Below, in pieces: positions 1 through 6,000 of a stretch of 64,000 bases of DNA (the first letter of the stretch is position 1; each line of letters opens with the position of its first letter). The DNA lies in the NCBI RefSeq assembly GCF_054482525.1, contig NZ_CM137006.1; one strand, 5' to 3'. The position numbers are program-made.

Positions 1-3000
1 GTGAAATACCAACATGCAAAGAAAAATGGTGATACGTTTAACGCTTTTATTTACTTCATTAAATTCAAATTAAATAAGTATAAAAGAAAACTATTTGGGC
101 AATAATAAAAATTATGGATGTCTGAGTTACAATAATAATTAAGGATGAGTACTATCATATTTTATTAGTTCAAGCAAGAGAACACGATGAGCAATGATTA
201 CCCTTTAGTATCCATAATAATACCGACGTATAATTCATCTGATTACATTACTGAAACTCTAACGAAATTAGAAAAACAAACTTACCCAAATTTTGAAATT
301 GTTATTGTTAATGATGGTTCTAAAGATAACACATCAAATGTTTTGAGAGAGTATGGGTTAACCCACTCTCGATTAATTATTATCAATAAAGAAAATGGCG
401 GTGTTTCGTCTGCCAGGAATACAGGTATCCGCAAGGCGCAAGGACAGTTTATATGTTTTATGGATGATGATGATGAGATAGATCCTAACTATCTGCTGAA
501 GATGTATTCCAGACAACATGAGACGGGAGGGGATGCGATTTATTGTGGGCTTTATGGACATCATATAAAAAATGGTGTTACTTACTCACCTATAAATACA
601 GATTTTAATGAAGGGTCTTTACTTTTCGATTTTTTTTATAAAAAGGTCAGATTCCATATAGGGTGCTTGTTTATAAGAAAACAACTCCTGGAAGATAATA
701 ATCTTTTTTTTGATGAAGATTTACGACTAGGAGAAGATCTGGATTTTATCTATCGACTGCTAATTACATGCGATATGTATGCGGTTCCATATTATATGTA
801 TAAGCATAACTATAGAGAAAATTCCTTAATGAACTCATGTAGAACCATCACTCATTATCGACATGAGTCATTTGCGCACGAAAGAATCTACTCTTCTGTG
901 ATGCAGTTATACAAAGGTAACCGGAAAGAAGAAATTCATACATTATTGAGTAAGAATAGAACTTATCATAAAACTCGTTATTTATGGAATGTTCTACTTA
1001 ATGGCGATTTTGAATTATTAAATCAATTAGTTGAAAGCAATGAAAAAGAATTGAAAGATTGTAATCTTCTTGGCAAGAGAGATAAGAGGCGAGCAAAAAT
1101 ATTAGCATCAAAAAACTATATTCTCTGGAGGATGGTAAGACTGGTAAATAGAAAAAAGAATAAACGTTAGGTCTTGCATTAAATAACCCATCCTCGTAGC
1201 ATAGGTTGAAATTATATGTCGTTTTGTTGGAATGAAATTAACTCTGGTGTCAAGTCTTTAATTCTCATATTATGTATATTGTCTTTAATGACTTTGTCTT
1301 TGTGGGATGATGTTGCAACAAAGTTTCTTCATGCAGCTGGAATTATATCTGCATTATATTTTCTAGCGACACCAAAAAAAACAATAACTAATAATCCTAC
1401 TTTGTTAATTTTTATCTCATTATGTCTTTTGGGTATCGTTAATATCATCTGGTATTCACATTATAAAGTTTCAGGCTCGGTTTATACCAATGCATATCGT
1501 GGCCCAATGGAAACTGGAAAAATTGCCTTGTGTAGTGCTTTTATTTTCTTAGTTCTTTTTGCTAAAGATGAGATGAGAACCAAAATAAAATTTGGGAAAC
1601 TAATTCTGTTCGCATCCTTGGCAACGCAGTTACTTTTTTTTGCGCATGCCATGTGGCAACATTTCTATTTAAACGTCGACCGTGTTGCATTATCAGCTTC
1701 CCACGCTACAACAGCAGGCTACATCATCCTTTTCCCTTCTTTACTGGCATCAATTCTCATTTTAAAATCCGACTTTAGACATAAAACAACATTATATACA
1801 ATTAACTTCATACTTAGCTTATGTGCTGTTATAGTAACTGAAACGCGTGCAGCCATATTAGTGTTTCCATTCTTTGCGTTACTATTAATCGTAATGGATA
1901 GTTATATTAATAAGCGAATTAATTATAAGTTATATTGTTTTATTGCGATTGCATTATTAGCAGGTGTATTTTCTTTTAAAGATACATTACTTACGAGAAT
2001 GAATGACTTAAATAGGGATTTAGTTAATTATTCGCATGATAACACCAGAACTTCAGTCGGTGCCCGTCTGGCAATGTATGAAGTTGGTTTAAAAACATAT
2101 TCTCCAATAGGACAATCACTGGAAAAACGTGCGGAAAAAATACATGAACTAGAAGAAAAAGAGCCTAGATTGAGTGGCGCTTTACCCTATGTAGATTCTC
2201 ATTTGCATAACGATCTCATAGATACGTTATCAACGCGTGGTATTCCTGGAGTTGTATTAACAATTTTAGCCTTTTCAGCAATACTCATATATGCCTTAAG
2301 AACTGCTAAAGAACCTTATATTTTAATCTTGCTTTTTTCACTACTGGTAGTAGGCCTAAGTGATGTAATACTCTTTTCTAAACCGGTTCCGACTGCTGTG
2401 TTTGTCACCATAATATTGCTTTGTGCTTATTTTAAAGCACAATCGGACCAATGTTTATTAGATAAGTAATGAATATGTGAAATAAAATCAGCAAGGAAGC
2501 TGATTTTATTTCAAAATTATCTATTAAAGAGTTGTAATTTAAATCATGGCAGCTTTTTCAGCGTTTTCTTCAATGAATTGCTTAACAGCATTTGCTGTCA
2601 ATTGAGACAACTCATTCCCCGGAGCCCTACAAACCATCTGATTCTTCCCATATCCGCCAATTAATCCCGGATCGGTTGGTCCATAAACCGTGATATTCGG
2701 TCTATCCAGTGCCGCCGTTAAATGGCTTAACCCCGTATCCACCGACACTACAAATTTAGCCCCGGCCAGTACGCGGGCAACGCCTTCCAGACTCATCTTC
2801 GGCAATACTTCAACATAAGCAAATCCTTCCGCCAGTCGTTTCGCCCGTTCTTCCTCATGCGGCGCGCCCCACGGAAGTTTAATCCGTATTCCTGAATCAG
2901 CCAGTAAACCAATCAATTCTCGCCAGTGTTCTTCCGGCCAGTGTTTATCATCACGGGTCGTCGCATGAAGAAATACGGCATATTCGCCAGCATCTGTAGG

Positions 3001-6000
3001 CAGGTTCGTCAGGAAATGTTGTGCGATAGCATAATCACCCTGGGTTTGCGGTTTGCTATAGCCCAAACTTTTGGCAAACAGTTCGCGGGTGCGTTCTACG
3101 GCGTGCTGCTGTTTTGCAATATGATGCTTACGATTGTAAAACAGGCTGGCTAACGGTTCTCGAACGGTTTGCCAGTCCATGCCATGCTTTACGCCATGCG
3201 CCAGACGCGTCACCAGCGCCGCGCTTTTTACCAGCCCCTGAGCGTCGATAACTGCGTCATAGTTCTCTGCTTGTAGCGCTTCACGAAACGCTTTGCGTTC
3301 AGCTTTTATGGGGGCCGAGAACCAGGCTTTACGCCAGCGACGTATTGCCACAGGAATAACTCGCTCAACGGCGGCGTGCCAGGAAGGAATCTGTGCGAAC
3401 CCTTCTTCCACCACCCAGTCAAACTTAATCCCTGGGATTGCCTGCTGGGCATCAGTGAGTGCGGGCAGCGTATGGAGAACATCGCCCATCGACGATGTTT
3501 TAACGATCAAAACCCGCATCCGTCAGGCTTCCTCTTGTAACAATAGCGCGTTGAGTTCTTCCAGTACGCGCTGGGGAGTAATGTCGATCAAGCTCTGGTG
3601 ATAACCCTCCGCAGCGTCACCTTTACGCACTTTGTGATAGCCGGTAATCAGGCGGATCACGCGCGCTTTATGGGATAGCGGCGGTGTGAAGTCCGGGCTA
3701 CTCGGACCATACAGGGCAACCAGCGGACGATTGAGCGCCGCCGCAACGTGCATCAGGCCAGAATCGTTAGTGACAATGGCTTTACAGGCTGCAATCAGGA
3801 TAACCGCTTGATCAAGCTGTGTTTCCCCCGCCAGGTTACGACACCATGCCTGCTGCTCGGTATTCAAAGCGGCAAGAATCTCATTGCCCGCTTCATGATC
3901 TTTCGCCGAGCCAAACAGAACCACCTGATAACCTTCATCAATCAGCTGCTTTGCCAGCTCCGCATAGTGGTAGTGTGGCCAGCGTTTTGCCGGACCAAAC
4001 TCCGCTCCGGGGCAAAAGCCAATCATCGGACGTTCTGATGAAAGCGAAAATTGATTACAGGTATATGATTTTTCACCTTCGCTCACCTGCAACTGCGGCC
4101 ATAACAATGGCTGCGGCAGATCTTGTGCGGTACGCATAATGCCTTTGTCATAGGCCAGCGCGACATAGCGTTCCACCATTAGCGGCCAGGCTTCTTTATC
4201 GAGCACGCGTACATCGTTAAGTAAACCGTAGCGCATCTCGCCGCGCCAGCCGGTGCGATGAGGAATACCCGCGAAGAAAGGCACTAATGCGGACTTGAAG
4301 GAATTGGGTAAGACGTAGGCGCGGTCGTAGCGCTTTTCACGCAGACTATGACCCAGTTTGCGGCGTTCGCCGATTTCCAGCGCTCCGTGACCGAGAGGCA
4401 TAGGGATAGCTTCGTTAACTTCCGGCATCCGCGATAATAATGGACGGCACCATGCCGGTGCCATCACGTCGATTATCGCCTGGGGATAGCGCGCCTGGAG
4501 CGTGCGATAGAGACTTTGCGACATCATCATGTCGCCAACCCAAGACGGGCCGATCACCAGTATTTTCATGCAGAGCTCTTATGCGTCGCGATTCAGCCAG
4601 GCCATGTATTCCGTTACACCTTCAGCAACGGTTTTGAACGGTTTGTCGTAACCCGCCGCGCGCAGATTTGTCAGATCTGCCTGAGTGAACGCCTGATAGC
4701 GGCCTTTCAGTTTATCCGGGAACGGAATGTATTCGATCTGGCCTTTCTTGTGATAAGCCAGAGTAGCATCTGCTACGGCCTGGAAGGATTCTGCACGACC
4801 GGTGCCGAGGTTGAAGATGCCGGAAACGCCATTTTCCAGGAACCACAGGTTTACATCTGCCACGTCGCCTACGTAAACGAAGTCGCGTTTGAAGTTCTCG
4901 CTACCTTCGAACAGCTTCGGCGATTCACCGTTATTAAGCTGGGTGTTGAGATGGAAAGCGACGCTCGCCATACTGCCTTTATGGCCTTCACGCGGTCCAT
5001 AAACGTTGAAATAGCGGAAGCCAACAATCTGCGAGTTCGCTTCTGGCAGGATTTGACGAACATATTCATCAAACAGGAATTTTGAGTAACCGTAGACATT
5101 CAACGGTTTTTCGTACTCGCGGGATTCAATAAAGTCGGAGGTGCGTCCGCCGTAGGTGGCTGCGGAAGAGGCATACAGGAACGGGATTTCGCGCTCCAGA
5201 CAGTAGTGCAGCAGCTCTTTGGAGTATTGATAGTTGTTATCCATCATATACTTGCCATCCCACTCGGTGGTGGAAGAGCATGCGCCTTCGTGGAAAATCG
5301 CTTCGACATCACCGAACTCTTCGCCAGCCATAATCTGGATCAGGAAGTCTTCCTTATCCATATAGTCCGCGATATCCAGATCCACCAGGTTCACAAACTT
5401 GGTGCCGTCTTTCAGGTTGTCCACCACCAGAATATCGGTGATGCCTTTATCATTCAGGGCCTTAACGATGTTGCTGCCGATAAAGCCCGCGCCGCCGGTA
5501 ACGATGATCATAACTGTAACCTTCGAATTATGGAGTCAGAGACAATCTCAGACACGAATACTTCTATCATATCACTACACGGCGTTGGCTTCAGCCATTC
5601 GCCAAAAGTGAGATTGATGGACGTTATTTATCCTGAATTTTGCAGAAGTGTTAACGCGTCATCTCGTCGCGACCTATAAGTTTGGGTAATATGTGCTGGA
5701 ATTTGCCCTGTCTGGAGAATCGCAATGCGTGGAGAATTTTATCAGCAGTTAACCAACGATCTGGAAACCGCACGGGCGGAAGGGTTGTTTAAAGAAGAGC
5801 GCATTATTACGTCTGCGCAGCAAGCAGATATCACTGTGGCTGATGGAAGCCACGTCATTAACTTTTGTGCCAATAACTATCTCGGACTGGCGAATCATCC
5901 GGATCTGATTGCGGCGGCAAAGGCGGGAATGGATTCTCACGGTTTCGGCATGGCTTCGGTGCGTTTTATTTGCGGCACTCAGGACAGCCATAAAGAGCTT

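What the first reader, a model, noticed from the sequence alone, without database searches (positions are those of the whole stretch)
187..3519. waaL lies on the opposite strand to hldD-waaF-waaC and is preceded by a GT2 transferase gene
In K-12 (R2-type organisation, as I recall) waaL is the last gene of the hldD-waaF-waaC operon. Here hldD-waaF-waaC are on the minus strand, while waaL is on the plus strand behind a GT2 gene and convergent with waaC, separated by a bidirectional hairpin. This fits the R1/R4-type core loci, where the ligase sits at the end of the central operon, and agrees with the ExPEC-like accessory content elsewhere in the window.
Basis: partly seen in the sequence, partly recalled or inferred. 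Interest (0 to 1): 0.3.

Follow-up and report, generated by a model that had tools for sequence, protein, structure and literature searches.

The report
Ordinary R1-type LPS core locus
The gene arrangement is real. It is the textbook end of the R1-type lipopolysaccharide core gene cluster of E. coli, the commonest core type, so it is ordinary, apart from signs that this strain's lineage acquired it by swapping a 2.6-kb gene cassette.

Summary
A 327-aa GT2 gene (187-1170, +) and a 417-aa O-antigen ligase gene (1216-2469, +) converge on waaC-waaF-hldD (2539-5511, -). A 15-bp hairpin (2478-2513) lies between them.

The window is E. coli PCN033, a porcine ExPEC of phylogroup D. Upstream lie waaQ-G-P-O-T-Y-W, so the locus has the canonical R1 order waaQGPOTYWVL. 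The GT2 gene is waaV, the β1,3-glucosyltransferase that makes the O-antigen attachment site.

- Published typing primers give only the 842-bp R1 product.
- The genome is already listed as R1.
- 1,834 of 5,426 complete E. coli genomes carry the same pair at ≥95% identity (one genome 90-95%).
- R4 has the same layout but a GT25 gene (waaX) and a ligase only 35% identical.
- K-12, R2 and also R3 have waaL downstream of waaC on the same strand.

The link to ExPEC is weak, because R1 is also the commonest type in commensals.

One modest extra: PCN033's immediate flanks are almost identical to R4 strains (4 differences in 5.3 kb), and its cassette to an R1 strain (2 in 2.6 kb). The crossovers map to windows of 300 bp and 16 bp. 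This suggests a recent R4-to-R1 cassette swap.

The parts
1..105 (+). 3' end of waaW, the UDP-galactose:(galactosyl)LPS α1,2-galactosyltransferase. The CDS starts 924 nt upstream of the window. From position 8 onward the sequence is R1-specific.
   Evidence: RefSeq CDS at L001 13077-14105. Pfam GT8. The alignment with R4 is perfect up to window 7 and then diverges.
187..1170 (+). waaV, the R1-specific GT2 β1,3-glucosyltransferase (327 aa). It adds the β-Glc that serves as the O-antigen attachment site.
   Evidence: Pfam GT2. R1-F typing primer at 769-787. The exact protein is named UDP-glucose:(glucosyl)LPS β-1,3-glucosyltransferase in a public source. There are 5 mismatches in 984 nt against UTI89 and 0 against VCSW7. 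Length and function match WaaV in PMC12548472 and PMC3526765.
1216..2469 (+). waaL, the R1-type O-antigen ligase (417 aa) and last gene of the central waaQ operon.
   Evidence: Pfam Wzy_C. PDB 7TPG WaaL at E = 1.2e-12. It is 99% identical to UTI89 WaaL, 34-35% to R4, 28-30% to K-12 and about 19% to R2/R3.
2478..2513 (.). Hairpin with a 15-bp stem and 6-nt loop, an A-tract in the 5' arm and a U-tract in the 3' arm on both strands. It is a putative bidirectional intrinsic terminator for the waaQ and hldD operons.
   Evidence: It is identical in UTI89 and VCSW7.
2539..3519 (-). waaC (rfaC), heptosyltransferase I. Its last 27 codons (2539-2619) belong to the type-specific segment.
   Evidence: NCBIfam RfaC equivalog, 633 bits. 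The five core types share residues 1-300 and diverge after that. The R4 alignment resumes at 2620.
3523..4569 (-). waaF (rfaF), heptosyltransferase II.
   Evidence: NCBIfam RfaF equivalog, 752 bits; annotation.
4579..5511 (-). hldD (rfaD/gmhD), ADP-glyceromanno-heptose 6-epimerase and first gene of the hldD-waaF-waaC operon.
   Evidence: NCBIfam equivalog, 677 bits; annotation.
8..2619 (.). R1-specific cassette of 2.6 kb with 31-35% G+C, which has no alignable counterpart in R4 loci. It comprises the waaW tail, waaV, waaL, the hairpin and the waaC tail.
   Evidence: BLAST and alignments against two R4 strains. Composition profile.

Best explanation
This is the distal end of a canonical R1-type waa (LPS core) locus of E. 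coli.

Shown by sequence: the long central operon waaQ-G-P-O-T-Y-W-V-L runs on the + strand and ends with waaV and waaL. The hldD-waaF-waaC operon runs towards it on the - strand. One A/U-flanked hairpin sits at the meeting point.

From the literature on identical or near-identical genes: WaaV, an inverting GT2 enzyme, adds a β1,3-glucose to the outer core, and WaaL ligates undecaprenyl-PP-linked O antigen to that residue in the periplasm.

Inferred: because waaL lies 8-9 kb downstream of the ops element in the waaQ leader, ligase expression in R1 and R4 strains should depend on RfaH-mediated antitermination of the central operon. In K-12, R2 and R3 it would instead follow the hldD promoter. 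The hairpin should terminate both convergent transcripts.

Also inferred: in the PCN033 lineage, the R1 cassette (window 8-2619) most likely replaced an R4 cassette (waaX-waaL) by homologous recombination within the conserved parts of waaW and waaC.
For: - Source: the window is 100% identical to E. coli PCN033. The annotated upstream genes are waaQ, waaG, waaP, waaO, a GT8 gene (waaT), waaY, waaW, a GT2 gene and a ligase gene.
- In-silico PCR: with the LPSTyper primers, only R1-F/R1R4-R bind, giving exactly 842 bp. No R2, R3, R4 or K-12 primer binds within 3 mismatches. The same primers type my reference loci correctly: K-12 1,442 bp, R4 380 bp, R3 1,021 bp, R2 610 bp and UTI89 R1 842 bp.
- Published typing: PCN033 is listed as R1, phylogroup D, O11:H15 in the supplement of PMC13293308.
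- Spread: the waaV-waaL pair is present in 1,834 of 5,426 complete genomes, all but one at ≥95% identity, and absent from the rest. This matches the published R1 share of 35.4%. UTI89 has the same gene order.
- WaaV function: the length (327 aa), the name β1,3-glucosyltransferase and the loss of O antigen in waaV mutants come from PMC12548472. WaaV and WaaX are described as the R1 and R4 determinants in PMC3526765.
- Data on this strain: in PCN033 itself rfaI, rfaJ and rfaL are described as one operon. All three were hits in a TraDIS in-vivo fitness screen, and a Δrfa mutant is serum-sensitive (PMC9828833).
- ops element: an exact GGCGGTAGCGTG lies 50 nt upstream of waaQ.
- Hairpin.
- Mosaic.
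Against: - Nothing contradicts the R1 assignment.
- Co-transcription of waaV-waaL with the upstream genes, RfaH dependence and termination at the hairpin are not measured here.
- An 81-bp AT-rich gap before waaV leaves room for an internal promoter.
- The hairpin stem is AT-rich (4 G-C pairs in 15), and on the + strand the simple terminator scan did not call it.
- The direction of the cassette swap (R4 to R1) rests on parsimony. Only 3 genomes carry R1 on this flank haplotype, against the R4 genomes sampled at about ranks 112 and 224 of the flank-identity ranking. The outer flanks differ by about 1% from the nearest R4 strains.
Confidence: 0.95

Rival explanations
1. It is an R4-type locus. 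R4 has the same convergent layout, and the transferase before waaL would be the R4 β-galactosyltransferase WaaX.
For: R4 loci have an identical gene order up to waaW and also place waaL at the end of the central operon. PCN033's flanking genes are almost identical to those of R4 strains. Phylogroup D is mostly R4.
Against: The R4 transferase is a 257-aa GT25 protein (Pfam E = 1.9e-51) with no similarity to the 327-aa GT2 protein here. The R4-F primer is absent. WaaL is only 35% identical to R4 WaaL.
Confidence: 0.01
2. It is a hybrid or novel core type, for example an R1/R4 chimaera like ECOR46, and would give a non-canonical core structure.
For: The locus is a sequence mosaic of R4-like flanks and an R1 cassette. 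Hybrid loci are documented in PMC13293308.
Against: There is one waaV and one waaL, with no waaX and no duplicated genes or IS elements. The shared genes waaO, waaT, waaY and waaW have the same functions in R1 and R4, so the gene content equals canonical R1, and the gene order is the same as in UTI89. The only type-specific coding changes outside waaV and waaL are the C-terminal tails of WaaW and WaaC, and these are the R1 versions (0 mismatches to UTI89 and VCSW7).
Confidence: 0.03
3. waaV-waaL form their own transcription unit, driven by a promoter in the 81-bp AT-rich gap after waaW. They would then be independent of the waaQ promoter and of RfaH.
For: The gap 106-186 is AT-rich and longer than most intergenic gaps in the operon. 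The cassette appears to have moved as a unit.
Against: The σ70 consensus scan found no promoter-like site in 1-186 on the + strand, and no terminator-like site between waaW and waaV. The cassette boundary lies inside waaW, not in the gap. The PCN033 paper treats rfaI, rfaJ and rfaL as one operon. In another R1 strain, the failure to complement some waaV frameshift mutants led the authors to consider polar effects on downstream genes.
Confidence: 0.1

Closest known systems
E. coli R1-type waa locus (prototype F470; Heinrichs et al. 1998, J Biol Chem 273:29497, cited from PMC13293308). Genomic examples are UTI89, CFT073 and Shigella sonnei.
   Same: Gene order waaQGPOTYWVL convergent with hldD-waaF-waaC. 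waaV-waaL is 99.3% identical to UTI89. The R1 typing amplicon is 842 bp. The genome is already typed R1 in print.
   Different: Nothing in gene content. The immediate flanks (waaP to the 5' part of waaW, and waaC) are of a haplotype otherwise seen with R4 cassettes. They differ by 1.5-2% from UTI89 but by under 0.1% from R4 strains.
E. coli R4-type waa locus (waaQGPOTYWXL)
   Same: The layout is the same, with waaL last in the central operon and convergent with waaC. The flanking genes are nearly identical. There is a hairpin at the convergence point.
   Different: The transferase is GT25 WaaX (β-galactosyl) rather than GT2 WaaV (β-glucosyl). WaaL is 34-35% identical. The last 33 codons of waaW and the last 27 codons of waaC differ.
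E. coli K-12, R2 and R3 waa loci
   Same: The same three-operon locus between kbl/tdh and coaD/mutM. hldD-waaF-waaC are conserved, with WaaC residues 1-300 nearly invariant.
   Different: waaL follows waaC on the same strand in the hldD operon. K-12 WaaL is 28-30% identical to the one here. R2 and R3 WaaL form a separate group, 51% identical to each other and about 19% to R1.

Membership tests
R1-type E. coli LPS core (waa) locus | Central operon order waaQ-G-P-O-T-Y-W-V-L, convergent with hldD-waaF-waaC | tested here: met
   Annotation of the identical record; same order in the R1 strain UTI89.
R1-type E. coli LPS core (waa) locus | Presence of waaV (GT2, 327 aa) immediately upstream of waaL | tested here: met
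   Pfam GT2. 5 mismatches in 984 nt against UTI89 waaV. Public name β-1,3-glucosyltransferase. Same length as WaaV in PMC12548472.
R1-type E. coli LPS core (waa) locus | Published R1 typing primers (R1-F in waaV, R1R4-R in waaW) give an 842-bp product, and primers for the other types do not bind | tested here: met
   Exact matches 842 bp apart and none of the other seven primers within 3 mismatches. The primers type five reference loci correctly.
R1-type E. coli LPS core (waa) locus | R1 core oligosaccharide chemistry (β-Glc side branch as the O-antigen acceptor) | not testable with these tools
   Needs MS, NMR or monoclonal-antibody typing of PCN033 LPS. Inferred from near-identity to characterised genes.
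R4-type E. coli LPS core locus | GT25 gene waaX before waaL, and the R4 waaL allele | tested here: not met
   No similarity between the GT2 protein and R4 WaaX. WaaX is Pfam GT25. WaaL is 35% identical. The R4-F primer is absent.
K-12/R2/R3-type arrangement | waaL directly downstream of waaC on the same strand (hldD operon) | tested here: not met
   Here waaL is on the opposite strand. K-12, R3 and R2 references show the co-directional arrangement.
WaaL O-antigen ligase family (Pfam Wzy_C, PF04932) | Wzy_C domain above the gathering score, similarity to a solved WaaL, and conserved Arg/His motifs of the periplasmic loop | tested here: met
   67.5 bits against a cut-off of 31.7. PDB 7TPG at E = 1.2e-12. 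The motifs TxTRA, GARLAMYE and HLHN align with K-12 WaaL. That these hold the essential residues is from my own knowledge of K-12 WaaL mutagenesis.
Bidirectional intrinsic terminator | Stable stem-loop flanked by an A-tract and a U-tract, so that each strand reads hairpin plus U-run, placed between convergent genes | tested here: inconclusive
   The structure and its stability are shown. The simple scan called it on the - strand only, and the stem is AT-rich. Termination itself needs 3'-end mapping.
RfaH/ops-controlled operon | ops element GGCGGTAGNNTG in the transcribed leader of the operon | tested here: met
   An exact GGCGGTAGCGTG at L001 7275-7286, 50 nt upstream of waaQ. RfaH dependence of waaV and waaL expression was not tested.

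The most novel reading that the evidence does not exclude
The PCN033 clone (3 of 5,426 complete genomes) switched its LPS core type from R4 to R1. It did so by replacing only 2.65-2.95 kb (waaW tail, waaV, waaL, terminator, waaC tail) through homologous recombination. The left crossover lies within window -293..+7 and the right crossover within 2637..2653. The event sits on a flank haplotype that otherwise carries R4. This would be a cleanly mapped natural example of minimal-cassette core-type switching in a virulent phylogroup-D lineage.
Probability: 0.6. Interest if true: 0.25.

Novelty: already known. Interest (0 to 1): 0.1.

Why it matters
Core type determines where the O antigen is attached, which LPS-specific phages and antibodies bind, and which anti-core vaccines could work. 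Knowing that this porcine ExPEC is R1 is therefore useful, but it is already recorded in print. The only added value here is a precisely mapped example showing that R1 and R4 differ by a 2.6-kb cassette that can be exchanged within otherwise identical flanks. This explains why core type tracks phylogeny only loosely. It also cautions against inferring pathotype from core type.

Tried and rejected
- Amor et al. 2000 (PMC97256), the original typing paper, is not held. I used the 2025 LPSTyper primers instead.
- PMC10368449 (E. coli C and ΦX174) had nothing useful on waaV or waaL.
- NCBIfam has no equivalog for WaaV. All hits are N-terminal GT2 matches far below their cut-offs. It has no model that hits this WaaL, so naming rests on comparison with typed strains and the literature.
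- BLASTP of this WaaL against R3 and R2 WaaL found no significant similarity, so those cannot be used for allele comparison.
- An Rfam scan of the whole window at gathering thresholds found nothing. The hairpin is not a described RNA family.
- I first recalled that R3 also places waaL in the central operon. The O157:H7 locus shows this is wrong.
- Two Python calls failed or missed loci because several loci are stored together in one FASTA file. This was solved.
- I considered and rejected an assembly inversion, because 1,832 complete genomes share the layout.
- I also rejected the idea that the GT2 gene is an O-antigen gene displaced into the core locus. It is the R1 typing target, and its mutants lose O-antigen attachment.
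Full report
**Observation.** The ORF list shows a 327-aa ORF at 187-1170 and a 417-aa ORF at 1216-2469 on the + strand. Three ORFs lie on the - strand at 2539-3519, 3523-4569 and 4579-5511. Pfam and NCBIfam identify them as:
- a family-2 glycosyltransferase (PF00535, E = 3.8e-39);
- an O-antigen ligase (Wzy_C, 67.5 bits against a cut-off of 31.7);
- RfaC/WaaC, RfaF/WaaF and the ADP-heptose epimerase HldD, the last three as equivalog-level matches.

The 69-bp gap between the two convergent stop codons contains a perfect 15-bp inverted repeat with a 6-nt loop at 2478-2513. 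It folds at about -20 kcal/mol on either strand, with z = -6.2 and -6.9 against shuffles.

**Source and surroundings.** Window 1-8000 is 100% identical to the chromosome of E. coli PCN033. The same stretch is held in one piece by 1,832 complete genomes, so an assembly artefact is excluded. The annotated record shows what lies upstream of the window: waaA-coaD divergent from waaQ, then waaG, waaP, waaO, a GT8 gene (waaT), waaY and the α1,2-galactosyltransferase gene waaW. The GT2 gene and the ligase gene follow. This is the order waaQGPOTYWVL. The first 105 bases of the window are the end of waaW.

**Core type.** The 2025 typing paper (PMC13293308) gives nine primers for the five E. coli core types.
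- In the PCN033 locus only R1-F (in the GT2 gene, window 769-787) and R1R4-R (in waaW) match. They match exactly and lie 842 bp apart, the published R1 product size. None of the R2, R3, R4 or K-12 primers matches within three mismatches.
- The same primers give the expected products on the reference loci I fetched: MG1655 (K-12, 1,442 bp), Survcare321 (R4, 380 bp), an O157:H7 strain (R3, 1,021 bp), Ec-050-T0 (R2, 610 bp) and UTI89 (R1, 842 bp).
- The supplement of that paper already lists PCN033 as R1, phylogroup D, O11:H15.
- The waaV-waaL pair occurs in 1,834 of 5,426 complete genomes, all but one at ≥95% identity, and gives no megablast match in the others. This agrees with the published R1 share of 35.4%.
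- The exact GT2 protein carries the public name UDP-glucose:(glucosyl)LPS β-1,3-glucosyltransferase.

**Comparison of the five layouts.**
- In K-12, R3 and R2, waaL follows waaC on the same strand. Only R1 and R4 place it at the end of the central operon, convergent with waaC.
- R4 differs from R1 in the gene before waaL. It is a 257-aa GT25 protein with no similarity to the GT2 protein here.
- WaaL here is 99% identical to UTI89 WaaL, 34-35% to R4 WaaL and 28-30% to K-12 WaaL. It has no significant similarity to the R2 and R3 ligases, which are 51% identical to each other.

All five types have a stable hairpin where the central and hldD operons meet. What varies is the side of the hairpin on which waaL sits.

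**How it works.** From the literature, WaaV is the β1,3-glucosyltransferase that defines R1 and WaaX is its R4 counterpart (PMC3526765). [quoted passage not shown]

Several results fit these roles:
- The GT2 protein's closest solved relatives are inverting GT-A enzymes.
- WaaL matches the solved WaaL structure 7TPG at E = 1.2e-12.
- WaaL keeps the TxTRA, GARLAMYE and HLHN motifs that align with K-12 WaaL.
- In PCN033 itself, rfaI, rfaJ and rfaL are described as one operon. They were hits in a TraDIS in-vivo fitness screen, and a Δrfa mutant colonises mice poorly and is serum-sensitive (PMC9828833).
- An exact ops element, GGCGGTAGCGTG, lies 50 nt upstream of waaQ.

From these I infer two things that were not shown. 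First, ligase expression in R1 and R4 strains depends on RfaH-assisted transcription of the roughly 9-kb central operon, whereas in K-12, R2 and R3 it follows the hldD promoter. Second, the hairpin acts as a bidirectional terminator, because it has an A-tract and a U-tract on both strands. The σ70 scan found no promoter-like site in the 81-bp gap before waaV, so an internal promoter is possible but unsupported.

**Mosaic structure.** Compared with two R4 strains, PCN033 is essentially identical across two stretches. From window -4384 to +7 there is one difference, at a site where PCN033 differs from every comparator. From 2620 to 3651 there is also one difference, at 2637. Positions 8-2619 cannot be aligned at all.

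Compared with the R1 strain VCSW7, positions -293 to 2652 are identical apart from two sites. VCSW7's waaP, waaO and waaC differ from PCN033 by about 2%.

The R1-specific segment thus includes the last 33 codons of waaW and the last 27 codons of waaC. The WaaC C-terminus differs in all five core types. The segment has 31-35% G+C, against about 54% in waaC-waaF-hldD.

The crossovers map to a 300-bp interval in waaW and a 16-bp interval in waaC. Several results bear on the direction of the swap:
- Only three genomes (PCN033, SCU-102 and 19KM1776) combine this flank haplotype with R1. The next best R1 genome is 99.1% identical over 8 kb.
- In the flank-identity ranking, the genomes sampled at about ranks 112 and 224 are still 99.8-99.9% identical. 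I examined the first of these, and the independently chosen Survcare321, and both are R4.
- The nearest neighbours in the outer flank (98.9%) are also R4.
- R4 dominates phylogroup D.

The most economical reading is a recent R4-to-R1 cassette replacement in the PCN033 lineage. The direction is an inference from parsimony.

**Novelty and scores.** The R1 organisation has been known since 1998 (Heinrichs et al., cited in PMC13293308), and this genome is already typed R1. The finding is correct but ordinary.

R1 is the commonest core type in commensals too (36.9%), and the typing paper finds no strong association between core type and pathotype except for EHEC.

The cassette-swap detail is a small, well-mapped illustration of a known principle, namely recombination at the waa locus. 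Interest is 0.1 and novelty is "already known".

Noticed in passing
window 5512-5724: There is no htrL/yibB gene between hldD and kbl, only a 213-bp gap. K-12 MG1655 and O157:H7 have an 858-bp gene there. UTI89, the R4 strains and the R2 strain also lack it.
   Followed up: partly
window 2539-2619 (WaaC residues 301-326): The C-terminal tail of the otherwise almost invariant WaaC differs in sequence and length in each of the five core types (318-330 aa). It belongs to the type-specific cassette. Whether it has any functional meaning is unknown.
   Followed up: partly
window 21025-26277 (-): A 1,750-aa YadA-like trimeric autotransporter gene lies next to lldP, with a DUF3251 gene beside it. From memory, this is the UpaG/EhaG position.
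   Followed up: no
window 34803-44263: An Rhs region. The Rhs core gene is annotated as a pseudogene with an internal stop. It is followed by orphan toxin and immunity genes (NTF2-fold immunity, Tlde1-domain, Imm57), several of them frameshifted.
   Followed up: no
window 51551-58196: Accessory genes between aldB and the yiaK-S/sgb sugar operon: a 359-aa gene annotated 'type I restriction endonuclease', a HicA/HicB toxin-antitoxin pair, and an AraC regulator, MFS transporter and GH127 glycoside hydrolase trio.
   Followed up: no
L001 7275-7286 (about 6.7 kb upstream of the window start): An exact ops element, GGCGGTAGCGTG, sits in the waaQ leader. In K-12 the same leader is annotated as the small RNA RirA.
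   Followed up: partly
L002-L005, convergence points of the waaQ and hldD operons: Every core type has its own unrelated stable hairpin (-12.8 to -27.7 kcal/mol) where the two operons meet. This holds whichever side waaL is on.
   Followed up: partly
metadata, not sequence: PCN033 is labelled 'Commensal' and ST5147 in the supplement of PMC13293308. PMC9828833 describes it as a highly virulent porcine ExPEC of ST597. Pathotype statistics in the typing paper may therefore be noisy.
   Followed up: no
window 1-7: By coincidence the window starts exactly at the left edge of the R1-specific cassette. Bases 1-7 are the last ones shared with R4 loci.
   Followed up: yes
L011 4708-5720 (strain 7/2, R4): waaW is annotated as frameshifted in this R4 strain. 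waaH is frameshifted in the O157:H7 strain but intact in the window (8195-9229).
   Followed up: no
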